Of a stretch of DNA of 64,000 nucleotides, positions 37,531 through 51,321 are shown piece by piece. This stretch comes from Gemmatimonadota bacterium (lineage in GTDB: Bacteria > Gemmatimonadota > Gemmatimonadetes > Longimicrobiales > Longimicrobiaceae). Both the position numbers and the translations under genes were made by a program. Every line of letters begins with the position of its first letter. The first letter of the stretch is position 1. The notes beneath the pieces are model-generated. The model saw only the letters and a list, made by a program, of their open reading frames with translations. It did no database searches and was not told where the DNA came from. The stretch covers positions 8,641-72,640 of the forward strand of contig JACDHR010000001.1 in assembly GCA_013820915.1 (NCBI GenBank), given 5' to 3'.

Positions 37531-40422
37531 TTACGGGGAGCCGCTACGGTCAGTAGCATCCAGCAACAATCGATAGCGCGACGCTTGTTCAGCATTGCCA
37601 AGCTTAGTGTAGAGGTCCACGAGGCCCTCCAGCGTTGCCTTCCCGGCTTCTCGCATCTGCGCCGTCATCTCCGCTTTTTGCAGCGTTTCATGCACCGCGA
37701 GCAGGTGTTCTTCCGCCTCGGCCGTACGGTCGAGGCGGGTCAGGGAATGAGCCAGATTGGAGCGGGCTCTCAACGTCCAGGCGTGATCCGCGCCAAGCGA
37801 CGCTTCGTAGATGCCGACCTGCCGCCGGCTCCACGACTCCGCGGCGCCAGGCTGGCCGCTCGCACGGAAAAATCCCGCGAGGGTGCCGATTGAATGACCG
37901 ATGCGCCAATGATTCTCCGGAAAATGCGCCCGGTGCAACTCGACCTCTTGGAGGAGCAACGCCTCCGCCTCCGCAAGCTTTCCCTGCAGCTCCAGCACGC
38001 TCGCCAGGTTCCCCGCAACTACCTGTCCGGATCGGTGGGCAGGGCCGAGTCCCTGCCGGGTCCCGATCAGCGACTCGCGATAGAGGCGTTCCGCCTCCGG
38101 ATACTCCTCCTTCATCCGCAACAGATAGGCCAGGTCGTTCCGCACGCCCGCTAGATCTGTCGCGGTCGCATCCGGAACGACGGACGCAGCTGTCAGCAGC
38201 TCCCGGTAGAGGCGCTCAGCGTCGTCCCAGCGGTCGAGAGAGCGAAGCACCCGGGCGAGAGTGGCCTTTGCCCTCCACACCCTGATGTGGTTTTCGGGAA
38301 CGCGGGCGCGGTACACCTCGAGCGCTTCCCGAAGCGTAGACTCGGCCCGTTCCGTATTGCCGTTCTCACGATGCGCCGCGGCCAGCTCCGTCAGCACGCC
38401 CGCAAGCACCAGCGGATCTCCCGTCTGCTGCTGCCGGAGGATACTAACGGCCTCTTCCAGATGAACTTCTGCTTCGCGGAAGCCACGCCGCCCCAGGTAA
38501 ATCCTTCCGAGCCGTGCGAGATTGGCCGCGACGATCGCGTGGTCAGAGCCGTGGAGACGGCGGCTCGTAGCGATCACCCCGCCGAGCAGGTCCCGCGCCT
38601 CATCGCGCATCCCCAGATCGTTCTGCACCTCGCCAATTGTCCAGAGCAGCTCAACGGCGATCTCCGGCTGATCCGCGAGCTCCGCACGCACGCGCTCAGC
38701 CCCACGGACCAGCAGTGTACGCGCCGATACCGTATCCCCACGTGCCTCGCTTCCCGGCTGCGCCGCGCGGAACAAGCTCGCTAGAAACGTCGTCGCCTGC
38801 TCCGCTCTTCCAGTCTGAATGAGGGCATCCCGAAGTGCGGTCTCAGCGCGGTTCCGCTCTGCCTCGGTCCCGGCCCGCGCGCTCTCGGCGGATTGCTGAG
38901 CGTCCCGCGCACGTCCGGCTTCTAACTCGGCACGCTCGAACTCCGAGCGAGCACGATTGCGCTCACCCTCGGCAACGGCTTGCGCCGCTTCGGCTCGGGA
39001 GCGTTCTGATTCCGCCCCGTCCCGCTCGCTCTCCGCTCGCGCCCGCTCCTGCCGTGCGACATTGCGCTCGGCCTCGAGACGATCGGCATGCGCCTGCAGC
39101 GTGCCCGTGTATGCACCCGCAGACAGGAGCACCACAAGTCCGGCTGCGACCACCCCCGGCCTTCGCCCCACGAATTTTTGGGCCCGGTATAGCCGGGTGT
39201 CCGGGCGTGCGGCCACCGGCCGGCCGCTCAGGTACCGCTCGACGTCGTCCGCGAGCGCGCCCGCGGAAGCGTAGCGCCGCTCCGGCTCCTTTTGCACCGC
39301 CCTGAGGAGGATGGTGTCCAGGTCGCCCCGGAGCCGGGCACGAAGCCGTCGCGCATCGGTACGTCGCAGGCGGGCGAGTTCTTCCGGCGCGACCTCACCA
39401 CGCGCCTCAGCCCCCGGCTCACGGACCAGCGCCACGCTGGAGGGCATCGGCTCCTGCTCGCGGAACGCCCGCTCGATTTCGGCCGGCGCACGCCCGCGCA
39501 GCCGGTACGGCCGCCGTCCGGCGAGCAGCCGGTAGAGCAGCATGCCGAGCTGGTACGCGTCGCTCGCCGTGGTCACCGGCTCGCCACGCACCTGCTCGGG
39601 ACTGGCGTACTCCGGCGTCATCAGCCGCAACCCGGGCCGTGTGTGCGGGCTGCGGTCCGGGCCGAGCGAGTCGTCGAGCAGCTTGGCGATCCCGAAGTCG
39701 AGCAGCTTCGGCGTGCCGTCCTCGGTCACCAGGATGTTCGAGGGCTTGATGTCGCGGTGGACGATCAGGTTGAGGTGCGCGTGCTGCACGGCGCGCGCGA
39801 CCTGCATGAAGAGCCGCAGACGCTCCTCGATCGTGCAGCGGCGCGCATCGCAGTACTCGGTGATCGGCCACCCCTCGACCAGCTCCATGACGAGGTAAGG
39901 ACGGCCCTCCCCAGTGGCGCCGCCGTCGAAGAGACGTGCGATGTGGGGGTGGTTCAGCGAGGCGAGGATCTGCCGCTCGGCGCGGAAGCGCGCCAGGATG
40001 TCGTCCGTATCCAGCCCGCGACGCAGCAGCTTGATGGCAACCCGCTGCTCGAACTCGCCGTCCACCCGCTCGGCCAGGTACACCGTGCCGCTGCCGCCGC
40101 GGCCGAGCTCCCGCACCAGCCGGTACGAGCCGATCCGGCCCCCCTCCGGCAGCACACCCTCGCCGCCCTCATCAGCCTCGGCCTCGATCACCGCGGCGAG
40201 GTCGCCGAGCGTTGGGCCGAAGGGCGTCTGGCCACCCGACTCGAGGAACCCGTCCGCCGCCTCGCTCGCCGTCAGCAGCGACTCGACGGCGGAGCGCAGC
40301 TCCGGATCACCCTCGCAGCAGGCGGCGAGATAGCCCGTCCGCTCTGCCGCGGGTACATCCAGCAGCGCGCAGAAAACGGCGTCGACCTCACTCCAGCGGT
40401 TCAGCAGGGGGCTACGCTCCAC
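37531..40422 (-). CDS. Ser/Thr protein kinase with TM segment, coiled coil and C-terminal TPR repeats (module 1)
   Basis: GTG at 40422 is preceded by GGAAGGAG. Kinase motifs GRGGSGTVY, VAIKLL, HRDIKPSNIL and DFGIAK. A long TPR-like C-terminal region. Confidence 0.9.
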   Translation of the reverse strand: MERSPLLNRWSEVDAVFCALLDVPAAERTGYLAACCEGDPELRSAVESLLTASEAADGFLESGGQTPFGPTLGDLAAVIEAEADEGGEGVLPEGGRIGSYRLVRELGRGGSGTVYLAERVDGEFEQRVAIKLLRRGLDTDDILARFRAERQILASLNHPHIARLFDGGATGEGRPYLVMELVEGWPITEYCDARRCTIEERLRLFMQVARAVQHAHLNLIVHRDIKPSNILVTEDGTPKLLDFGIAKLLDDSLGPDRSPHTRPGLRLMTPEYASPEQVRGEPVTTASDAYQLGMLLYRLLAGRRPYRLRGRAPAEIERAFREQEPMPSSVALVREPGAEARGEVAPEELARLRRTDARRLRARLRGDLDTILLRAVQKEPERRYASAGALADDVERYLSGRPVAARPDTRLYRAQKFVGRRPGVVAAGLVVLLSAGAYTGTLQAHADRLEAERNVARQERARAESERDGAESERSRAEAAQAVAEGERNRARSEFERAELEAGRARDAQQSAESARAGTEAERNRAETALRDALIQTGRAEQATTFLASLFRAAQPGSEARGDTVSARTLLVRGAERVRAELADQPEIAVELLWTIGEVQNDLGMRDEARDLLGGVIATSRRLHGSDHAIVAANLARLGRIYLGRRGFREAEVHLEEAVSILRQQQTGDPLVLAGVLTELAAAHRENGNTERAESTLREALEVYRARVPENHIRVWRAKATLARVLRSLDRWDDAERLYRELLTAASVVPDATATDLAGVRNDLAYLLRMKEEYPEAERLYRESLIGTRQGLGPAHRSGQVVAGNLASVLELQGKLAEAEALLLQEVELHRAHFPENHWRIGHSIGTLAGFFRASGQPGAAESWSRRQVGIYEASLGADHAWTLRARSNLAHSLTRLDRTAEAEEHLLAVHETLQKAEMTAQMREAGKATLEGLVDLYTKLGNAEQASRYRLLLDATDRSGSP

Positions 40423-40439
40423 GGTCGGCTCCTTCCCGT

Positions 40440-41051
40440 TCAGGTCCTGGCGGCGTCGGGGTGCAGCAAGTGGTAGAGGTACGTCTTCGCCCGCACCCAG
40501 TCGCGTTCCACGGTGCGCGTGGATAAGTCGAGCGCGGCCGCCGTCTCCGCCGCGGTCATCCCGCCGAAGAAGCGGCACTCCACGACCTTCTCCAGCCGCG
40601 GATCATGCTCGGCGAGCCGGCTTAGCGCTTCGTTCAGCGCCAGCAGCTCGGTCGTCTGCTCCTCCCTCGCACCCATCCCCGTGTGCAGCGTCACGTGGGC
40701 TCCCTCGCCACCCCGCTTCCCCGCGGCGCGCCGGCGCGCGTAATCGACCAGGATGCGGCGCATCGCCGTAGAAGCGATGGCGAAAAACTGCGCCCGATTC
40801 CGCCATTCCTCTCCCTGGCGCGGCGAGAGCTTGACGTACGCTTCGTGGACGAGTGCGGTGGTGTTCAGCGTGTGGTCGTCCCGCTCGTTGCGCAGATGGT
40901 TTCGCGCGATCTGGTGCAGGTCGCGGTAGATCAGCGAGAAAAGCTCGTCGAACGCGCCCGCCTCACCGTCCGCGTGCGCCGCAAGCAGCCGCTCGAGTTG
41001 CGCGGGGTTGTCGTGATGTGCTGCAAAGCCGTCTCCGCGGTGAACCGGCAT
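40440..41051 (-). CDS. ECF-type sigma-70 family factor, kinase-associated type (module 1)
   Basis: ATG at 41051. Region 2 (LVHEAYVKL) and region 4 (ECRFFGGMTAAETAAALDLSTRTVERDW). Stops 17 nt before the kinase start. Confidence 0.9.
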   Translation of the reverse strand: MPVHRGDGFAAHHDNPAQLERLLAAHADGEAGAFDELFSLIYRDLHQIARNHLRNERDDHTLNTTALVHEAYVKLSPRQGEEWRNRAQFFAIASTAMRRILVDYARRRAAGKRGGEGAHVTLHTGMGAREEQTTELLALNEALSRLAEHDPRLEKVVECRFFGGMTAAETAAALDLSTRTVERDWVRAKTYLYHLLHPDAART

Positions 41052-43500: not shown

Positions 43501-46116
43501 TCACCGAGCCATATGCATTTCCAGCTCAGCCCGATAGCGGTCCGCGTCTCCCGTTCTGCCCCACGCGTCGTATAGCTCCACGAGCGCTTCAAGCACGAAC
43601 TGTGTTCCCGGAGGACCGCCCGCGGAACGGGCGCGGCGATCGATGCCGAGCAGCACACGTTCGGCATCGCCAAACCTTCCGTGCAGGAACATCGAAGTGG
43701 CCAGGTGCGAGCTAGTTTTCAGTATGCGAATGTCCTCCGGACCCAGTTGCATCGTCCGGAACCGCTCGAGTGACTCGACGAGTAACGGCTCGGCCTCGGC
43801 ACCTCTGCCGAGAGTGTTCAAGATTCCGCCGAGGTGGGAAAGCGGGTAGGCTTTGGACGAGGAGTTCGGGTCCACCTGGTCGTAGAGAGCGATGGTTTCA
43901 CGGAAGATCGGCTCCGCGAGGTCCAGTTCGCCACGGTCCCGGTGGACGGCGGCGAGGTTGCTGAGCATTCCAAGGGCCTGCGGGTGTCGCTTCTGGACGA
44001 GTTTGTCCATGATCTCGACGGCGCGGCGCAGTAGCCGGACGCTCTCCTCCGAGTCGTCCGGTTCGACTGCGAGCGCGAGGTCGCTCAGGCTCCCCGCCAC
44101 CTCGATGCTCTCCTCGCCGAGCAGTGCTATGCGCAGCTCGAGCGCCTCGCGCATACGGTCCGGTCCACTCTCGCCGTCGAGCAACAAGGGATTGGCTTCG
44201 GAGCCATACGCAGAGATGACGAGCACGTGCGCCAGGTTCTCGCGCACATCGTCCGTCGATTCGCGGAAGATCCGGATAGCGCGCCGGTACATCGCCCTCA
44301 CCTCTTCGTTCGGAACGACGCCGCGGAAGCTGAGGGAATGGCCATAGTCTGTCAGGATTCGCCCGACGACCTGGTGGGATGGACCCGCGTGGCGTTCGGC
44401 CAGCGTGAGCGCTTCGCGATACAGGGAGTCGCTGCGCGCGGGATCGCTCCGTTGGAGCAGGAATGCGATCGCTCTCAGGTCGTCCGCATGGTCGGCGGCG
44501 TGCTCCGTTGCGACCAGGCGGCGCGCGGATACAGCATCCGTGTACAGCGCGAGCGCGCGCTCGTTCACCCCGTACTCCTGGTACACTCTCGCGATAGCCG
44601 AGAGCAGCGACGCCCTGACCGGCGGCTGCTCCACGAGGCGGACCTCGAGCCGACGAGCGGCTTCATCGAGCAACTCACGGGCGGTCACCATCCCGCCCTT
44701 GGTGACGTTGGGGCCCGAAAACGTGAAAACCTCCCGCATGAAGCCGGCGACCTGGCGAGCCTTTTCCGCCTCGACCCGCGCGCGGTCGCGCTCCCGCTCC
44801 AACGCCTGCGCGTGTAGTTGCAGGGTAGCCGAGTAGCCGATTCCGGCCAGAGAGATCAGCATCCCCGCCGCCACCGTGCCCGGGCGCCGTCTGATCAGCT
44901 TTTTCGCGCGGTAGCCCCACGTAGCGGGTCGGGCGGCAACCGGCCGGCGATCGAGGTGCCGCTCCACATCCTCGGCCAGATCCGCCGCGGACGCGTAGCG
45001 CTGTTCCGGCTCGCTCCGCAGGGCCTTGGCGACGATGGTATCGATGTCGCCGGAGAGCCGCGCGCGTAAGCGGCGGGGGTCGGTCCCGCGGCGGGTTGCG
45101 ATCACCGCCACGATGTCGCCGCCGGGCCCCGCCTCTCCCGCCTCTCCCCTCCGTCGAAGCGCCTGACTGGGGCGCTCCGGATCCTGCTCGCGGACCGCCG
45201 TCTCGAACGCCTGCGGGGAGCGGCTCTCGATCCGGTACGGCCGCCGTCCGCTCACCAACTCATAGAGCAGCAGCCCGAGCTGGTACACGTCCACGGCGGT
45301 GGTGATCGGGTCGCCGCGCACCTGCTCGGGGCTCGCGTAGGCCGGCGTCATCGGGCGGAGGCCGGTCCGCGTCAGCGGCGTGTCGCGGAGCGCCGGATCG
45401 GCGTGCAGCAGCTTGGCGATGCCGAAGTCCAGGAGCTTGGGCGTTCCGTCGCCGGTCACCAGGATGTTGGACGGCTTGATGTCGCGATGGACGATCAGTT
45501 TGCGGTGAGCGTGCTGGACCGCGCGGCAGACGGTAGCGAACAGGCGGAGACGCTCGCCGATACCGAGACGCCGCGAGTCGCAGTATTCTGTGATGGGCTC
45601 ACCCTCGACGAGTTCCATGATGAGGTACGGCCGGCCGTCGTCAGTCGCTCCGCCGTCGTAGAGGCGTGCGATGTTCGGATGGCTGAGCGACGCGAGGATT
45701 CGCCGCTCCGCGCGGAAACGCTCGAGCACATCCGCCGTGTCCAGCCCGCGACGCAGGATCTTGACGGCCAGCCGCTGCTCGAAGTCTCCACCTACGCGCT
45801 CCGCCGCGTACACGGTGCCGGTGCCGCCGCGTCCGATCGGTGCGAGGAGCCGATAGGCGCCGACTCGCCTGCCGACGTCCTCCGCGTCGCAATCGAGTTC
45901 ATCAGCGAGGGTGACGAGGAGGGCGGGGTCTTCGAGGAAATCCGGAGCGGTCTCGACTGAAGCCACCAACTCGGACGCGAGCCGAAGAAGATCCTCATCG
46001 CCGCCGCACGCCTCCCGCAAAAAGGCAGCGCGGGCGCTCGGTGCGCGGTCCAGCGCGGCGTCGAAAAGCGCGTTGACCTCGCGCCACCGATCCAGCACCA
46101 CCTTTCCCGTGGTCAT
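43501..46116 (-). CDS. Ser/Thr protein kinase with TM segment and C-terminal TPR repeats (module 2)
   Basis: ATG at 46116 (MTTGKVVLDRWREV...). GRGGTGTVY, LAVKIL, HRDIKPSNIL and DFGIAK motifs. Paralog of 37531..40422. Confidence 0.9.
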   Translation of the reverse strand: MTTGKVVLDRWREVNALFDAALDRAPSARAAFLREACGGDEDLLRLASELVASVETAPDFLEDPALLVTLADELDCDAEDVGRRVGAYRLLAPIGRGGTGTVYAAERVGGDFEQRLAVKILRRGLDTADVLERFRAERRILASLSHPNIARLYDGGATDDGRPYLIMELVEGEPITEYCDSRRLGIGERLRLFATVCRAVQHAHRKLIVHRDIKPSNILVTGDGTPKLLDFGIAKLLHADPALRDTPLTRTGLRPMTPAYASPEQVRGDPITTAVDVYQLGLLLYELVSGRRPYRIESRSPQAFETAVREQDPERPSQALRRRGEAGEAGPGGDIVAVIATRRGTDPRRLRARLSGDIDTIVAKALRSEPEQRYASAADLAEDVERHLDRRPVAARPATWGYRAKKLIRRRPGTVAAGMLISLAGIGYSATLQLHAQALERERDRARVEAEKARQVAGFMREVFTFSGPNVTKGGMVTARELLDEAARRLEVRLVEQPPVRASLLSAIARVYQEYGVNERALALYTDAVSARRLVATEHAADHADDLRAIAFLLQRSDPARSDSLYREALTLAERHAGPSHQVVGRILTDYGHSLSFRGVVPNEEVRAMYRRAIRIFRESTDDVRENLAHVLVISAYGSEANPLLLDGESGPDRMREALELRIALLGEESIEVAGSLSDLALAVEPDDSEESVRLLRRAVEIMDKLVQKRHPQALGMLSNLAAVHRDRGELDLAEPIFRETIALYDQVDPNSSSKAYPLSHLGGILNTLGRGAEAEPLLVESLERFRTMQLGPEDIRILKTSSHLATSMFLHGRFGDAERVLLGIDRRARSAGGPPGTQFVLEALVELYDAWGRTGDADRYRAELEMHMAR

Positions 46117-46181
46117 GCGCACAGCCTCGCGAAGCGTTGGTTGCGGGGGCCGGTCGAAGGGCGATCCCTCCGAGTGTACGG

Positions 46182-46766
46182 CTAATCCGCCTGAGGGCCG
46201 TCCCGCAGCAGGTGGTAGAGATACGCCTTGGCGCGCGTCCAGTCTCGCTCCACCGTACTGGACGAGACACCCAGCACTTCCGCCGTTTCCCCGGTACTCA
46301 GCCCGCCGAAGAAGCGGCACTCCACCACCCGCTCCAGGCGCGGATCGTGGCTGGCGAGCTGCGAAAGCGCCTCGTCGAGTTCGATCAGATCGACCGACTG
46401 CTGCTCGGACGCGACCGACCCGGGTTGCAGCGTCACGTGGATCACTTCGCCACCGCGCTTCCGGGTGCCACGTCCGCGGGCATGGTCGATCAGCACGTGG
46501 CGCATCGCCTTGGATACGAAGGCGCGAAACCGCACCGGTTCCCTCCATTCGATCTCCGGACGCTCCGAAAGTTTCAAATAGGCTTCGTGCACGAGCGCGG
46601 TGGTGACGAGCGTGTGGCCGGCTCGCTCACGCCGAAGATGCCGCCGCGCGATCTCGCGCAGCTCGTCGTAGAAAAGCGCGAAGAGCCGGTCGAACTCACC
46701 CGGGCTCAGGTCCGGGGAGGCCGCGGCCGCTGCACGCTCACCCGCGTTGTTCGGCACCACGGACAT
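46182..46766 (-). CDS. ECF-type sigma-70 family factor, kinase-associated type (module 2)
   Basis: ATG at 46766. LVHEAYLKL and ECRFFGGLSTGETAEVLGVSSSTVERDW. Paralog of 40440..41051. Confidence 0.9.
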   Translation of the reverse strand: MSVVPNNAGERAAAAASPDLSPGEFDRLFALFYDELREIARRHLRRERAGHTLVTTALVHEAYLKLSERPEIEWREPVRFRAFVSKAMRHVLIDHARGRGTRKRGGEVIHVTLQPGSVASEQQSVDLIELDEALSQLASHDPRLERVVECRFFGGLSTGETAEVLGVSSSTVERDWTRAKAYLYHLLRDGPQAD

Positions 46767-47050
46767 ACGGAGACTCCATCGAGAACGGTGGGGGGGGAGA
46801 CGCCGCGAGGCCGCGGCTGTCGAGGTGTGGGTGGTGATGGGATCGCCACGGTTTTCCCGCCTTCCAAATCGGAACCCACGCTCCGGCGGTTCCAGCGGCG
46901 TGACCCGCATTTCAGTCAAAATAATGCTACACTCTCGGGATCGCCAGAAACCGCGAATCCACTCGCATGACGGTCGCGAGCCGGAATTCCCGCCTTGTAG
47001 AATAAGTGTCGGTACGCAGCCCCCGTTTCCGTAACCGCAGGAGGATCGAG

Positions 47051-48328
47051 ATGATTTTCCAACGTCATTTAGCAGTGGTCGCAGTGGTGCTTTGTACCCT
47101 CTTCGCCCTGCCGGAAGGCGCCGATGCGCAGGTCGGCAAACGACTCCGCGAGCGCGCCAAGGAAAAGGTAGAGCAGCGCATCGAGAAGCGCGCCGATCAG
47201 GCGATGGAGAAGGCGCTGGACGGGACCGAGAACGCGATCACCTGCGTGGTCACCGACGCCGCCTGCATCGAAAAGGCGGGCAGGGAGGGACGGCAGGTGG
47301 TGGTCACCGATGCGGGGGGCAACGCGGTTGCCGGGGGCGCGAGCCCCGCGCCGGCAGCCGGCCAGCGAGCGGGTGAGGGCGCCTGGGCCAACTTCGATTT
47401 CGTGACCGGCGACCGCGCGCTCTTCGCGGAAGACTTCAGCCGGGACCGCGTGGGCAACTTCCCCCAGCGGCTGGAGCTGCGCGGCGGCAATATGGAGATC
47501 GTCGAGTGGCAGGGCAGGCGCTACCTGCGCAGCACGGCGGAGGGCTCCTTCGACGTGATCCTGCCGGAGGTGCTGCCGGAGCGCTTCACCGTCGAGTTCG
47601 ATCTTTTCGATCCCTCGTTCTGGCCCACCTTCGTATACGGGGTCGACTCACAACGTAAGCCGGAAGAGCACACTCGCGCTTTTTTCGCCTTTAATAAAGA
47701 GTCCGGCCTGGTGACCGGCAACCTCACCGTAAACCCCGCGGCCGGAAAATCCGCCGCCGAGATCGTTCCCCGCGAGAAGATGATGCGCGTCAGCATCATG
47801 GCCGACGGCAGATACATGAAAGTGTTCCTGGACGAGAACCGGATCTCCAACCTGCCATCCGCGGACTTTCCACGCAGCAACCGCATCCGCTTCGACCTGC
47901 CGTCGGGGACTTCGGCGGAAAAGCCGTTGTTGATCGGCAACCTCCGCATCGCCGCCGGTGGGACCTCGCTCTACGACGCGCTGCAGGCCGACGGGCGGGT
48001 GTCCACGCAGGGAATCCTGTTCGACACCGGCAGCGACCGGATCCGCCCGGAAAGCACGCCCACGCTGAAGGAGATTACCGGCATGCTCAAGGAGCACGGC
48101 TCGCTCCGGCTGATGATCGAGGGCCACACCGACAACGTCGGCCAGGCCGCGTCGAACCAGGCGCTCTCGGAGAAGCGTGCCGCCGCCGTCAGGGCGCACC
48201 TGGTCGGCCAGGGGATCGATGCCGCGCGGCTGCAAGCGGCAGGCAAGGGGCAGAGCGAGCCCGCCGGCTCCAACGATACGCCGGAAGGGCGCCAGAACAA
48301 CCGCCGCGTCGTGCTGGTGCGGCAGTGA
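47051..48328 (+). CDS. OmpA-family (peptidoglycan-binding C-terminal domain) exported protein
   Basis: RBS AGGAGGA and a signal peptide. C-terminal ILFDTGSDRIRPES...IEGHTDNVG...NQALSEKRA...NRRVVLV OmpA_C motif set. Confidence 0.85.
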   Translation: MIFQRHLAVVAVVLCTLFALPEGADAQVGKRLRERAKEKVEQRIEKRADQAMEKALDGTENAITCVVTDAACIEKAGREGRQVVVTDAGGNAVAGGASPAPAAGQRAGEGAWANFDFVTGDRALFAEDFSRDRVGNFPQRLELRGGNMEIVEWQGRRYLRSTAEGSFDVILPEVLPERFTVEFDLFDPSFWPTFVYGVDSQRKPEEHTRAFFAFNKESGLVTGNLTVNPAAGKSAAEIVPREKMMRVSIMADGRYMKVFLDENRISNLPSADFPRSNRIRFDLPSGTSAEKPLLIGNLRIAAGGTSLYDALQADGRVSTQGILFDTGSDRIRPESTPTLKEITGMLKEHGSLRLMIEGHTDNVGQAASNQALSEKRAAAVRAHLVGQGIDAARLQAAGKGQSEPAGSNDTPEGRQNNRRVVLVRQ

Positions 48329-48375
48329 GGCCGCACCAGCGTTTTTCGTCCATTCTCCGAACCCGGAAATCACCC

Positions 48376-49128
48376 ATGGACACACGTTGCGTCACCCTCG
48401 GCTCACTGCTCGCCGCGGCAGTTCTCGTCTCCCCCCCGTTTGTCGTGGAGGTCGTGGCACAGCAGGACCTGCGGCTCAGCGCCGCCGAAGGGAGCGTCGC
48501 CGCCCTGTCCGTGCCCCTCGATATCCGCCAGACGGAGAGCTGGAAGCGCAGCGGCGGCGAGGTTCAGTGGGACGTGCTCCTCCAGCCGACGGGCGTCGTC
48601 TCCAACCAGGGCCGCACCGCGGCAACGCTGATCCTCTACGCCGTGTCGGCCGCGGACCGTACCTCGCCGAAGCTGACCGGTCTGCGGGCGGAGAGCGGGC
48701 GCTACTCGCTGGGGTTCGCGAGCTCGGCGGAGTTGCGCGGCTGGAGCGGCCCGAAATACTGCAAGTCGACCCACTGCTGGCTGCCGATCGGCACCGCGGA
48801 TACGCCGGTGCTGATAGAGATGAAACTCCGGCCCGGCGAGCGGCTGGACGTCGGCACGGCTCGGCTCCGGAACCAGGCTGCGATCGGCGCCCTCATGGCG
48901 GCCGGCCCGGTGCACCTCGGGATCCTCGCCATGGCGGATCCGCTCGCCGACGGCACGGTTTCCCCGCTTCGCGTTGGTTTCGCGCTGTTCGACATGCCGT
49001 TGCGGCCCGAGGCATTTCCGGGCGACCACTTCTTTCCCGGCGACCACTTCTTTCCCGGCGACCACTTCTTTCCCGGCGACCACTTCTTTCCTGGCGACCA
49101 CTTCTCCTCACTCGTCTTGTCCCGATGA
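48376..49128 (+). CDS. exported hypothetical protein ending in five tandem FPGDHF repeats
   Basis: ATG at 48376 and a signal peptide (LLAAAVLVSPPFVV). The C-terminus is ...EAFPGDHFFPGDHFFPGDHFFPGDHFFPGDHFSSLVLSR. No family recognised. Confidence 0.6.
   Translation: MDTRCVTLGSLLAAAVLVSPPFVVEVVAQQDLRLSAAEGSVAALSVPLDIRQTESWKRSGGEVQWDVLLQPTGVVSNQGRTAATLILYAVSAADRTSPKLTGLRAESGRYSLGFASSAELRGWSGPKYCKSTHCWLPIGTADTPVLIEMKLRPGERLDVGTARLRNQAAIGALMAAGPVHLGILAMADPLADGTVSPLRVGFALFDMPLRPEAFPGDHFFPGDHFFPGDHFFPGDHFFPGDHFSSLVLSR
49025..49114 (+). repeat. 5 x 18-bp near-perfect tandem repeat (TTTCCCGGCGACCACTTC) encoding FPGDHF
   Basis: Units at 49025, 49043, 49061, 49079 and 49097. Units 2-4 are identical; units 1 and 5 each differ at one base. 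Confidence 0.95.
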
Positions 49129-49549
49129 AAACCACTACGACACTGCTCCTGATCCCTCGGGTCGCGTTGCTCACCGCGTGTGATTCCGAGGACAGCGACG
49201 ACCGGAGCGCGGAAAGAGACGCGCGCTGATTCGATCGATTGCCGGTACACCGCGCAGGGCGTGATCACCAGAGACGGGAAAAGCGCGGTCATCAACGTCG
49301 GAGAGTATGAGCAAGGCGGCGCGATGAAGCCGGGCAACACCGGCTCCATCTCGTACATGATCGGCGGTCGATGACACGTAAGGCTTGTTGGCGCATCCGG
49401 CACGCGCCATCGCAGGACTCAATGGTTCACCCGATCCCAAGGAGGTCCGAATGTAGAGGTGATGCGAAAACCAACGGATACACCGCCGGATCCGGTTGCG
49501 GACAACCACCGCCGACCACGACCCATCTATGCGAAAGGATGATGCACCG

Positions 49550-50023
49550 ATGAGCACGAAGAACGAACACGCCGAGCAGCAACCAGCCCAACGCAGCACA
49601 CCCGCCGGCATACCGGACCAGCCCGTAGACCGCCGGAAGTTCCTCGGCAAGAGCGCGGCCCTGGCGGCCGCGGCAACCGTCGGCGGTGCGGCAACCCTTT
49701 CGGCAAGCCCAATTCGGGCCGCGGAGTTTGCTGCCGGTGGGCGCTCCACCCCCGGTACGATGCACGTCACCTTCGAGTTCCAGTCCAGGGGCTCCTGCGA
49801 CGCCTCGCAGCTTGAAAAGCAGATCCAGGGCAACAGCCGAATTCTCGGCCGGATCGTAAACGAGCGCGCGTGCGCTGGCGATTTCGGCGAATGGCTTCGC
49901 GACGCCAGCGACGATGATGAGGTTTCTCTCCAGCGCGTCGGTTTCAACAGCGTTCCGCTCACGGGTGACCCGCGTTTACCAACTCGACCCCCCCGCAGCC
50001 CAACGACGGGGACCCCGGCCTAG
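49550..50023 (+). CDS. small Tat-signal (twin-arginine) exported protein, unknown function
   Basis: RBS AAAGGA then ATG at 49550. DRRKFLGKSAALAAAATVGGA is a canonical RR motif plus h-region. The mature part (~100 aa) has two Cys, an acidic patch and a Pro-rich tail. Confidence 0.65.
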   Translation: MSTKNEHAEQQPAQRSTPAGIPDQPVDRRKFLGKSAALAAAATVGGAATLSASPIRAAEFAAGGRSTPGTMHVTFEFQSRGSCDASQLEKQIQGNSRILGRIVNERACAGDFGEWLRDASDDDEVSLQRVGFNSVPLTGDPRLPTRPPRSPTTGTPA

Positions 50024-50151: not shown

Positions 50152-51321
50152 ATGGTCCATTCCGTGATTCTCAAATCGATCCGCGCGTGCAACCTGCGCT
50201 GCACCTACTGCTACTACATCAACGAGGACACCCCCGAATACGGGCTCACGATGTCCGACGCGTGTCTCGAGCGGGTCTACGCCTCCTATGCGGAGTACCT
50301 CCACGACAACGGTGCGCGAGGCTCTCTGGTGTGGCACGGCGGAGAACCGCTGATGCTGGGCCGGCCCCGGCTCCAGCGGCTCCTCGACCTGCAGCGCCGC
50401 TTCTTCGCGCCCGGCTCGATCGAGAACCATCTGCAAACCAACGGGCTCCTGATCACGGACGAGTGGATCGACTTCTTCAAGAGGAACGACGTCAAGGTGG
50501 GCCTCAGCCTGGACGGAACCAAGGAGGTGCACGACCGGTTCCGCGTGACCAAGGGAGGTAAGGGCAGCTATGATCTGGTCATACGTGCCATTGAGCGGTT
50601 GCGCGGACACGGGATCGAGGTCGGCGTGCTGACCGTGATGGGAAGCACACCGGATGGACGGAGGGAGTTGATGCACCTGCGTGACGAACTCCGCATACGC
50701 GGAGCCGATTTCCTCTTCCCCATCAGCAGCCACGCGCTCGCGCGGCGCTCACCACTCGATCAGAAGATCCTTTCGGAGTTCCTGCTTTCCGCCTTCCAGA
50801 CCTGGACCGAGGCCGACGATTCTTTATTCACGGTCCGCCTGTTCCGAGCGTTGATCAAGAACGCGATGGGTATGCCGCACAATTACTTCGCGAGCGGAGC
50901 GGCGAGTCTCGGTGCCGCGGTCATCGTTGAAACCGACGGGAAGGTCTGCATGGACACGGATTTCAGCGAGATCGACCGCTACGACCTCGGCAGTGAATAC
51001 CGGTTCGACTTCAGCGTGATGGACGAGGACTTCACGTTCGCGAAGGTGGACCGGGCGCTGCACGCCCGGATCGAGGAAAGACAGCTCGACCGGATCCCCG
51101 CCGACTGCCAGAGTTGCCGGATGCGCTCTGTCTGCCGAGGCGCGCACCCAGCGTCCCGGTATGATGACCGGGACCACTCCTTCGATCACCGCAGCGTTTA
51201 CTGCGAAGCGATGTACGACATCTCCGACGCCGTGGTCGAGTACCTGGTGCGGAGTGGCCACGGAGAGGACCTGGCCGACGCGGATCTACAACACGACCTG
51301 CGAACCGCGGTGCCGGCTTGA
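50152..51321 (+). CDS. radical SAM enzyme with C-terminal SPASM-like Cys cluster (peptide/protein maturase type)
   Basis: CNLRCTYC (CX3CX2C, 50188..50211), GGEPL, LQTNGLL, VETDGKVC. C-terminal CQSCRMRSVCRGAH...YC. ATG at 50152. Confidence 0.85.
   Translation: MVHSVILKSIRACNLRCTYCYYINEDTPEYGLTMSDACLERVYASYAEYLHDNGARGSLVWHGGEPLMLGRPRLQRLLDLQRRFFAPGSIENHLQTNGLLITDEWIDFFKRNDVKVGLSLDGTKEVHDRFRVTKGGKGSYDLVIRAIERLRGHGIEVGVLTVMGSTPDGRRELMHLRDELRIRGADFLFPISSHALARRSPLDQKILSEFLLSAFQTWTEADDSLFTVRLFRALIKNAMGMPHNYFASGAASLGAAVIVETDGKVCMDTDFSEIDRYDLGSEYRFDFSVMDEDFTFAKVDRALHARIEERQLDRIPADCQSCRMRSVCRGAHPASRYDDRDHSFDHRSVYCEAMYDISDAVVEYLVRSGHGEDLADADLQHDLRTAVPA

What the first reader, a model, noticed from the sequence alone, without database searches (positions are those of the whole stretch)
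48376..49128. Exported protein ending in five tandem FPGDHF repeats encoded by a near-perfect 18-bp VNTR
The last ~40 aa read FPGDHF five times (DNA 49025..49114, with at most one mismatch per unit). This implies recent expansion or ongoing slippage. The motif is rich in aromatic and His residues. Radical SAM/SPASM maturases of the three-residue-cyclophane (triceptide) class and the His-Xaa-Ser (Hxs) system are precedents for enzymes paired with substrates carrying tandem short aromatic/His motifs. Such an enzyme lies 1 kb downstream on the same strand. Alternatively the H/D-rich repeats could be a metal-binding tail. The repeat number is in frame and could vary between strains.
Basis: partly seen in the sequence, partly recalled or inferred. 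Interest (0 to 1): 0.6.

Follow-up and report, generated by a model that had tools for sequence, protein, structure and literature searches.

The report
Variable FPGDHF-repeat tail, not rSAM substrate
A secreted envelope protein of a soil Gemmatimonadota bacterium ends in a perfect, copy-number-variable FPGDHF repeat, but the nearby radical SAM enzyme almost certainly modifies a different, adjacent small protein, and the repeat motif instead recurs next to sigma-factor/kinase signalling genes.

Summary
ORF 48376..49128 (+, 250 aa, Sec-type signal peptide) ends in five FPGDHF units.

Three near-identical assemblies carry 5, 4 and 3 units.

The protein belongs to a small unannotated family. In its relatives (24-46% identity) the same "PLRPEAFPG" junction is followed by degenerate FPGxxF units, so the tail is ancestral and was homogenised and expanded here.

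The rSAM-substrate reading is not supported:
- None of 58 FPGDxF-repeat loci holds an rSAM.
- None of 86 SPASM-rSAM loci holds the repeat or the family.
- The closest rSAM homologue (65% identity) lacks the gene but keeps the Tat-signal small protein.
- That small protein's relatives flank every close rSAM homologue examined and share a W-x-x-W motif.

His is not conserved at its position in the unit, which weakens the metal-binding idea.

FPGDxF-repeat genes recur next to ECF43-type sigma/Hanks-kinase(TPR) modules and directly downstream of OmpA-like genes, as in this window. This points to an ECF-linked envelope protein with a length-variable aromatic-acidic tail.

The parts
48376..49128 (+). 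Gene for the FPGDHF-tail protein (250 aa), a member of an unannotated secreted-protein family
   Evidence: ORF. No Pfam or NCBIfam hit. True homologues at 24-46% identity from the all-against-all HMMER search. L135/L140 homologue at E=2e-52.
48376..48459 (+). Sec-type signal peptide (about 28 aa, predicted cleavage before QQ)
   Evidence: Read from the sequence. The hydrophobic N-terminus followed by A-x-A|QQ is conserved across family members in alignment A2. Inference; no signal-peptide predictor was run.
49015..49104 (+). 18-bp VNTR, five units encoding FPGDHF. Edge units differ at the Pro third position; the three inner units are identical.
   Evidence: Copy number is 5, 4 and 3 in the window, L164 and L163, and only the number of inner CCC units changes. 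The Logan k=31 contig L165 breaks inside the array.
49105..49128 (+). Seven-residue tail SSLVLSR plus the stop codon. Most family members also end in Arg.
49126..49229 (+). 34-aa lipoprotein-like mini-ORF whose ATG overlaps the upstream stop (ATGA). Context only.
   Evidence: It is called as a 34-aa gene in two NCBI assemblies. Not otherwise tested.
47006..48328 (+). OmpA-family (peptidoglycan-binding C-terminal domain) protein directly upstream on the same strand. Recurrent neighbour of FPGDxF genes.
   Evidence: PF00691 at 1.3e-22. The same OmpA-like then FPGDxF order occurs in L137, L146 and L159, and in L131 at 1.8 kb.
48311..48342 (+). Terminator-like hairpin (13 pairs, 9 G-C, then a T-run) spanning the OmpA stop, 34 nt before the FPGDHF start
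   Evidence: This is a consensus scan only; 4 such sites were found against 3.7 expected in the region.
46182..46766 (-). ECF sigma factor (PF07638 type, ECF43-like VTTA in region 2.2), divergent from the OmpA/FPGDHF genes
   Evidence: ECF43 features are taken from PMC13147305. The same kind of sigma lies next to FPGDxF genes in 11 of 55 metagenome loci.
43501..46116 (-). Hanks-type Ser/Thr kinase with one TM segment and a C-terminal TPR region (TPR_10/TPR_12), partner of the ECF sigma
   Evidence: Homologues lie beside FPGDxF genes, including the true family member in L135.
49550..50023 (+). Tat-signal small protein (157 aa), the probable real partner or substrate of the rSAM. It is not part of the repeat protein.
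   Evidence: TIGR01409 Tat signal. 38% identity to the protein upstream of the closest rSAM homologue. Shared strand/helix/W-x-x-W layout with the small ORFs next to six rSAM homologues.
50152..51321 (+). Unclassified radical SAM/SPASM-like enzyme, nearest to the YhhB, anSME and FxsB models but below all their cut-offs

Best explanation
48376..49128 encodes a Sec-exported envelope protein of a small, unannotated family. It has a beta-rich N-terminal domain of about 180 aa, a conserved 'PLRPEAFPG' junction, and a C-terminal tail of F-P-G-D-x-F hexapeptides. The tail is ancestral to the family. In this lineage one unit has been homogenised and amplified by replication slippage into a perfect 18-bp array. 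Its inner-unit number differs among near-identical populations (3, 4 or 5 units), which changes tail length in frame without breaking the protein. The gene sits in a cassette of OmpA-like gene, FPGDHF gene and mini-lipoprotein ORF. This cassette is transcribed divergently from an ECF43-type sigma factor and its Hanks kinase, which has an inferred periplasmic TPR domain. FPGDxF-repeat genes recur in both contexts in unrelated metagenomic lineages. The most likely role is therefore an ECF-linked cell-envelope protein whose aromatic-acidic repeat tail is an extended, probably unstructured, length-variable interaction module. It is not the substrate of the rSAM 1 kb downstream; that enzyme's conserved partner is the adjacent Tat-signal protein. 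Shown here: the repeat, the family, the assembly-level copy variation, the lack of rSAM co-occurrence, and the ECF/STK and OmpA co-occurrence. Inferred: export, slippage as the mechanism, ECF control, and the interaction role of the tail.
For: Repeat and frame. Family with degenerate tails at the same junction. In L135/L140 the same N-domain and FPGDLF x5 are followed by 290 further residues, so the repeat can act as an inter-domain element. The same holds for the VPGDQY x10 proteins of genome G050. Copy number 5/4/3 with flanks 99.96-100% identical. No rSAM in 58 FPGDxF loci, with the L021 control found. No repeat or family member in 86 rSAM loci, 924 kb. The rSAM's own partner is conserved. 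ECF/STK association: 12 of 55 loci, 8 of 20 with at least 2 kb on both sides, and five directly divergent from the sigma gene with 47-103 bp gaps. Against a background of 12 such sigmas in the 4.79-Mb host genome, 0.85 loci are expected by chance; five groups sharing at most 50% identity were observed, Poisson P about 0.002. OmpA-like gene directly upstream in L137, L146 and L159. AlphaFold2 gives a beta-rich N-domain (core pLDDT 70-85) and no confident fold for the tail (pLDDT below 45).
Against: No expression, localisation or binding data exist. ECF control is inferred from gene order alone. A terminator-like hairpin lies between the OmpA gene and the FPGDHF gene, and no promoter was identified. 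The ECF/STK enrichment uses the host genome's sigma density as background for unknown source organisms, and many loci are related. The copy-number differences could come from de Bruijn-graph collapse of a periodic stretch rather than from real alleles. The structure model is shallow (3 sequences, mean pLDDT 56.5), so 'unstructured tail' is weak. No orthologue of the family was detected at E<=0.01 in 60 relatives of the same order. The exact repeat doublet was in none of 400 other genomes of the phylum, so the context cannot be checked in close kin.
Confidence: 0.6

Rival explanations
1. One reading: the FPGDHF repeats are core motifs of a RiPP-like precursor. The rSAM/SPASM enzyme at 50152..51321 would cross-link each unit (three-residue cyclophane or Hxs-like) before export.
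For: The enzyme is on the same strand 1 kb away. Its nearest models are cyclophane-forming maturases: YhhB 205 bits, FxsB 174 bits. Triceptide enzymes act on repeated aromatic-X-X motifs and can use His or Phe (PMC11499958). H-F-F and F-F-P triplets exist in every unit.
Against: There is no co-occurrence in either direction. The closest rSAM locus lacks the gene but keeps the Tat partner. All six close homologues examined have their own small partner with a conserved W-x-x-W motif. The family's tails elsewhere are degenerate and His is not conserved. F-P-G cannot be a triceptide motif because Gly has no C-beta. The candidate is a 250-aa Sec-exported protein, not a short leader-core peptide. 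Two ORFs and a 320-bp gap separate the genes. The rSAM is below every family cut-off, and HxsB scores 68.8 against 370.
Confidence: 0.05
2. Metal-binding tail: the Asp/His pairs of five FPGDHF units chelate Cu, Zn, Ni or Ca in the periplasm. Avian prion hexarepeats and His-rich tails of metallochaperones are precedents recalled from memory, not tested here.
For: There are five D-H pairs in 30 residues. In many other lineages the variable position is Met, also a Cu(I) ligand, as in FPGDMF x5-6. Asp is nearly invariant in the unit.
Against: The x position takes M, D, N, S, T, Q, L, I, G, A and H in different lineages, and is uniform within an array as expected from slippage rather than selection. 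No metal-homeostasis genes are in the neighbourhood. True family relatives have S, L or T at that position.
Confidence: 0.12
3. The repeat is a neutral slippage-prone low-complexity tail with no specific function, and the 3/4/5 difference between assemblies is an assembly artefact.
For: The periodic stretch (35, 53 or 71 nt) is close to common assembler k-mer sizes. A k=31 contig breaks inside the array. The tail has no confident predicted structure.
Against: The F-P-G-D-x-F unit is conserved at protein level in dozens of unrelated exported proteins spanning 32-75% G+C. It keeps its place after the same junction in family members at 24-46% identity. That argues for selection on the motif. L163 also differs from the window by 3 substitutions, so at least that assembly is a different population.
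Confidence: 0.15

Closest known systems
Triceptide (three-residue cyclophane) precursors and their rSAM/SPASM maturases (XyeB, GrrM/OscB, FxsB, YhhB, HaaB, HtkB; PMC11499958)
   Same: Both have tandem short motifs rich in aromatic residues and His. An rSAM whose best-scoring models are cyclophane maturases lies 1 kb away.
   Different: There is no co-occurrence of repeat and enzyme. The enzyme reaches no family cut-off. The enzyme has another conserved partner. The candidate is a 250-aa Sec-exported protein with a folded N-domain. The most conserved triplet, F-P-G, cannot form a C-beta cross-link.
His-Xaa-Ser (Hxs) system, HxsA/HxsB/HxsC/HxsD
   Same: Both involve repeated short His-containing motifs in a small protein near an rSAM.
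   Different: There is no H-x-S motif. There is a single rSAM, not a pair. The HxsB model scores 68.8 bits against a cut-off of 370.
In-frame VNTRs in bacterial surface and secreted proteins (slipped-strand length variation)
   Same: A perfect short tandem DNA repeat whose unit is a multiple of three. The inner-unit number differs between near-identical genomes.
   Different: The encoded motif (F-P-G-D-x-F) belongs to no described repeat family in Pfam or NCBIfam, and no paper holding 'FPGD' together with either repeat term was found. Variation is shown only at assembly level.
ECF43 sigma factor / Hanks-kinase modules (EcfP-PknT of Vibrio parahaemolyticus, EcfK-PknS of Xanthomonas citri; PMC13147305)
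   Same: The neighbouring sigma has an adjacent transmembrane Hanks kinase with C-terminal TPRs and a Thr-containing VTTA in place of the acidic region-2.2 motif.
   Different: No FPGDxF protein is reported in the passages of PMC13147305 that were read. Whether the FPGDHF gene is a target, a ligand or a bystander of the module is untested.
Avian prion-protein hexarepeats (recalled from memory; only titles and abstract openings seen)
   Same: Tandem hexapeptides containing Pro, Gly, His and an aromatic residue, polymorphic in number.
   Different: Unrelated proteins and organisms. This is a compositional analogy only, with no homology and no test here.

Membership tests
Triceptide / 3-CyFE precursor | Aromatic(1)-X(2)-X(3) motif whose X3 carries a C-beta for the cross-link (PMC11499958) | tested here: inconclusive
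   F-P-G fails because Gly has no C-beta. H-F-F and F-F-P are formally possible, but His is not conserved in relatives.
Triceptide / 3-CyFE precursor | Precursor gene co-occurs with the maturase across homologous clusters | tested here: not met
   0 of 58 FPGDxF loci has an rSAM. 0 of 86 rSAM loci has the repeat or the family. The closest rSAM locus, L021, lacks it.
Triceptide / 3-CyFE precursor | Loss of 2 Da per motif on co-expression with the maturase | not testable with these tools
   Needs co-expression and LC-MS/MS.
Cyclophane-forming rSAM/SPASM maturases (YhhB NF041707, FxsB TIGR04269, XyeB TIGR04496, GrrM TIGR04261) | Score at or above the curated NCBIfam cut-off | tested here: not met
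   YhhB 205 against 445, FxsB 174.5 against 370, XyeB 129 against 450, GrrM 110 against 310. The anSME model scores 199.7 against 349.
His-Xaa-Ser system | HxsA with H-x-S repeats plus paired rSAMs HxsB/HxsC | tested here: not met
   No H-x-S motif. HxsB scores 68.8 against 370. There is a single rSAM in the cluster.
In-frame VNTR (slippage-variable coding repeat) | Near-perfect tandem DNA repeat with a unit length that is a multiple of 3 | tested here: met
   18 bp, 5.1 copies, 97% matches.
In-frame VNTR (slippage-variable coding repeat) | Copy number differs between otherwise near-identical genomes | tested here: met
   5, 4 and 3 units in the window, L164 and L163, with flanks 99.96-100% identical. 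This is assembly level only; the read-level check was impossible.
ECF43-type sigma/Hanks-kinase module (neighbour) | ECF sigma adjacent to a Hanks kinase, with Thr in place of the acidic DxxD of region 2.2 (QTTA consensus; PMC13147305) | tested here: met
   Sigma 46182..46766 is next to kinase 43501..46116. The sigma reads ...LVTTALVHE.... No formal ECF-group classifier was run.
ECF43 regulon member | Transcription depends on the neighbouring sigma | not testable with these tools
   Only gene order and recurrence are available.
Any Pfam / NCBIfam / PDB family for the FPGDHF protein | Significant profile or structure match | tested here: not met
   No Pfam or NCBIfam hit. No PDB sequence hit. 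Best Foldseek E=0.098 with TM about 0.15.

The most novel reading that the evidence does not exclude
The F-P-G-D-x-F repeats are a multivalent aromatic-acidic ligand, or co-sensor, for the periplasmic TPR_10/TPR_12 domain of the neighbouring ECF43-associated Hanks kinase. Exported FPGDxF proteins would then set or report the activity of these sigma-phosphorylating kinases, whose signals are unknown, and repeat number would tune the response. Kinesin-light-chain-type TPRs binding W-acidic motifs is a precedent recalled from memory, not tested here.
Probability: 0.1. Interest if true: 0.75.

Novelty: new variant of a known kind. Interest (0 to 1): 0.4.

Why it matters
The finding removes a tempting but wrong RiPP-precursor assignment and points the rSAM to its real partner, the Tat-signal protein. 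That matters for anyone mining this cluster for cyclophane chemistry.

It also brings out an undescribed, widely scattered hexapeptide repeat (F-P-G-D-x-F) in small exported proteins. The repeat is often kept as perfect, slippage-prone arrays. It is found repeatedly beside ECF43 sigma/Hanks-kinase modules and OmpA-like genes.

The signals and targets of ECF43 kinases are largely unknown (PMC13147305). A recurrent exported neighbour is a concrete candidate to test, either as a regulon member or as a ligand. The variable array may also be a handy strain marker for this uncultured lineage.

Tried and rejected
1. The word-indexed homologue search with the protein found only repeat-driven hits. With the family profile it found only P0137.
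2. The search for related loci with the rSAM alignment in genome contigs chose patterns that were too generic. It returned 80 distant anSME-like loci at 25-32% identity, used only as a negative set.
3. The search for related loci with the family alignment in metagenome contigs found nothing.
4. No orthologue of the protein (only repeat-type matches in one genome, G050) and no close homologue of the rSAM (best 28-30% identity) was found in 60 relatives. The exact FPGDxF doublet was in none of 400 other genomes of the phylum, so the context could not be checked in kin.
5. A wider homology between the window's family and the roughly 200-aa proteins with internal repeats was rejected. hhalign aligns only the 30 repeat residues.
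6. A PepSY-like N-domain in those internal-repeat proteins was rejected: 1 of 12 members matched, at E=0.009.
7. The AlphaFold2 model with a 3-sequence alignment was too weak (mean pLDDT 56.5). Foldseek and PDB sequence searches gave nothing significant.
8. The promoter and terminator scan gave no usable promoter. Reading the ECF-proximal intergenic regions by eye gave no convincing shared ECF promoter motif.
10. The P0049 look-up found no record.
11. The literature search found no paper holding 'FPGD' together with either repeat term.

Full report
**1. The observation**

ORF 48376..49128 on the + strand encodes 250 aa. It ends with PLRPEA, then FPGDHF five times, then SSLVLSR.
- Tandem Repeats Finder reports one array at 49015..49105: period 18, 5.1 copies, 97% matches, score 168.
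- Units 2-4 are identical. Unit 1 (CCG) and unit 5 (CCT) differ only at the Pro third position.
- The motif doublet occurs nowhere else in the 4.79-Mb genome.
- The N-terminus is a hydrophobic signal-like segment ending in VVA followed by QQ.

**2. A real gene of a real but unannotated family**

Pfam and NCBIfam give nothing. The word-indexed search found only repeat-driven hits.

The exhaustive HMMER search of 1.84 billion representatives found 25 proteins at E<=0.001, three of them below 1e-30.
- P0130-P0135, P0137, P0150 and P0151 are true homologues over the whole N-terminal domain (24-46% identity). They share a signal peptide ending in A-x-A|QQ and the junction "PLRPEAF(P)G".
- After that junction they carry two to four degenerate units, such as FPGDSY-FPGDLF-FPGDLL-FPGDLF, or WFPGETWFPGQTWF. 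A short tail usually ending in Arg follows.
- The hexapeptide tail is therefore ancestral. The window's copy is a homogenised, expanded version.
- A further member (L135/L140, E=2e-52, about 45% G+C) has the same N-domain, then FPGDLF x5, then about 290 more residues with a weak CarboxypepD_reg-like match. The repeat can thus also sit between domains.

AlphaFold2 on the only alignment the tool would accept (3 sequences) gives a beta-rich N-domain with core pLDDT of 70-85. It gives no confident structure for the tail, where pLDDT is below 45. Foldseek and PDB sequence searches find nothing significant.

**3. Copy number varies**

The exact Tat-protein sequence of the window is encoded on three other public contigs. 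Two of them cover the repeat gene, which is called at 238 and 244 aa there.
- L164 is identical to the window over 8.5 kb except for an 18-bp gap.
- L163 has 3 substitutions and a 36-bp gap.
- Both gaps remove inner CCC units, giving 4 and 3 FPGDHF units against 5 in the window.
- A k=31 Logan contig (L165) starts inside the array. That is expected if the periodic stretch exceeds k plus the period, or if the site is polymorphic.

Caveat: periodic stretches of 35, 53 and 71 nt are near common assembler k-mer sizes. The variation is therefore shown at assembly level only.

**4. Is it the rSAM's substrate?**

*The enzyme.* The enzyme at 50152..51321 has a radical SAM domain (PF04055). Its best NCBIfam models are YhhB (205 bits, cut-off 445), anaerobic sulfatase maturase (199.7 against 349) and FxsB (174.5 against 370). 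HxsB scores only 68.8 against 370. It is an unclassified relative of cyclophane and anSME-type SPASM enzymes.

*Its own partner.* The closest homologue (P0006, 65% identity) lies in L021. There an ECF sigma is followed divergently by a 138-aa Tat-signal protein and the rSAM, with no OmpA gene and no FPGDxF gene. That 138-aa protein is 38% identical to the window's 49550..50023 product.

Five homologues at 42-49% identity (L022, L023, L104, L105, L106) each have a 65-107-aa ORF overlapping or within about 30 bp downstream of the rSAM gene. Aligned together, all seven small proteins share a strand, a helix and a Trp motif: FGEW, WGEW, WGQW, WAKW, WRKW. So the enzyme has its own conserved partner. 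I re-derived it here.

*Reciprocal tests.*
- An exact-pattern scan of the metagenome collection for FPGDxF-FPGDxF gave 55 loci totalling 338 kb.
- A profile of the rSAM family hit none of them, nor L107, L005 or L009. It did find the L021 control at 1e-187.
- Conversely, 86 SPASM-rSAM loci (924 kb; 6 close, 80 distant) contain no FPGDxF repeat and no family homologue.

*Chemistry.* Triceptide enzymes link an aromatic residue to the C-beta of the third residue (PMC11499958). F-P-G cannot serve because Gly has no C-beta. H-F-F and F-F-P could, but His is the unconserved position.

I put the RiPP-substrate reading at about 5%.

**5. What the motif looks like elsewhere**

The 55 loci span 32-75% G+C. 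Most encode exported proteins of about 160-235 aa, with Sec or clear twin-arginine signals. Their arrays are internal and often perfect: FPGDMF x5-6, FPGDDF x5, FPGDNF, FPGDSF, FPGDTF, FPGDQF, FPGDLF, FPGDIF and FPGDGF. A C-terminal segment of 50-60 aa follows.

Large surface proteins of genome G050 carry VPGDQY x10. The consensus is aromatic-P-G-D-x-aromatic. The x residue is free between lineages and uniform within arrays.

This weakens a His-based metal-binding role and fits concerted evolution by slippage. hhalign shows that these proteins share only the repeat with the window's family. No Pfam family covers them, and no paper holding 'FPGD' together with either repeat term was found.

**6. 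Recurrent neighbours**

I searched the loci with the window's own neighbours as queries.
- *ECF sigma and kinase.* 12 of the 55 loci hold a sigma and/or kinase homologous to the window's ECF sigma (PF07638 type) and TPR kinase: 11 hold the sigma, and L135 holds the kinase only.
- Of the 20 loci with at least 2 kb on both sides of the repeat, 8 have such a module.
- In five loci (L111, L129, L142, L145, L147) the FPGDxF gene is directly divergent from the sigma gene, with 47-103 bp between them.
- The true family member in L135 has such a kinase 0.8 kb downstream.
- *OmpA-like gene.* One lies directly upstream on the same strand in L137, L146 and L159, and 1.8 kb upstream in L131. This is the window's own arrangement.
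- *Background.* The host genome has 12 such sigmas in 4.79 Mb, 10 of them with a kinase. About 0.85 loci would then be expected by chance.
- Collapsing related loci at 50% identity still leaves five independent groups, Poisson P about 0.002.

The window's sigma reads LVTTALVHE where ECF43 sigmas have their Thr-containing QTTA motif. Its kinase has one TM segment followed by TPR_10/TPR_12 repeats. This matches the ECF43/Hanks-kinase systems, in which the periplasmic TPR domain's signal is unknown (PMC13147305).

In L021 the Tat-protein/rSAM pair is itself divergent from such a module. In the window, the OmpA-like gene, the FPGDHF gene and the mini-ORF therefore look like a cassette lying between an ECF module and the Tat/rSAM pair. 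They do not look like part of the rSAM system.

**7. Most likely mechanism**

The product is a Sec-exported envelope protein that is probably ECF-linked. Its C-terminal aromatic-acidic hexapeptide tail is an extended interaction or spacer element. The tail's length drifts by slipped-strand mispairing.
- Shown: the repeat, the family, the assembly-level variation, and the contexts.
- Inferred: export, ECF control, and the role of the tail.
- Not excluded, at about 10%: the tail is a ligand of the kinase's periplasmic TPR domain.

A terminator-like hairpin lies at 48311..48342, just before the gene, and no promoter was identified. The transcription unit is therefore uncertain.

**8. Verdict**

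- The rSAM-substrate part is not supported.
- The metal-tail alternative is weakened.

The motif family and its ECF43/OmpA context appear undescribed, but they rest on comparative evidence only. Interest is moderate.

Noticed in passing
window 49126-49229 (+): A 34-aa ORF with a lipobox-like LLTAC. Its ATG overlaps the FPGDHF gene's TGA (ATGA), which suggests translational coupling. Two NCBI assemblies call it as a gene.
   Followed up: partly
window 48311-48342 (+): A strong terminator-like hairpin (13 pairs, then a T-run) spans the OmpA gene's stop, only 34 nt before the FPGDHF start codon. The FPGDHF gene would need read-through or a promoter inside the OmpA 3' end.
   Followed up: no
L011 and L013 (genome G050, same order): Two surface proteins of about 1100 aa carry ten perfect VPGDQY hexapeptide units between domains. 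This is a Tyr/Val variant of the same aromatic-P-G-D-x-aromatic unit.
   Followed up: partly
L135 2417-4000 (+); same protein in L140: A 527-aa member of the window's family from a low-G+C soda-lake metagenome. It has the N-domain, FPGDLF x5, and a further 290 aa with a weak CarboxypepD_reg-like match. A TPR Hanks kinase is convergent 0.8 kb downstream.
   Followed up: partly
L123, L126, L129, L142, L145, L147, L153, L154: A coherent family of proteins of about 175-190 aa with clear twin-arginine signals (MTISRRKFI...), FPGDMF x2-6 and a conserved C-terminal segment. Each is encoded within 2 kb of an ECF43-like sigma gene.
   Followed up: partly
L021 1700-2330: The intergenic region between the ECF sigma and the Tat-protein gene of the closest rSAM locus holds two similar stretches of about 30 nt (GTTTTT.CGCTTTAC...ATGAAG), seen by eye. 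They could be promoter or operator elements.
   Followed up: no
L165 1-44 against window 49062-49105: The Logan k=31 contig of run SRR11719875 begins inside the 18-bp array. This fits an unresolved periodic stretch of at least four units, or polymorphism, in that run.
   Followed up: no
window 43501-46766 and 37531-41051 (-): The genome holds 12 ECF sigmas of this type, 10 with an adjacent Hanks kinase.
   Followed up: partly
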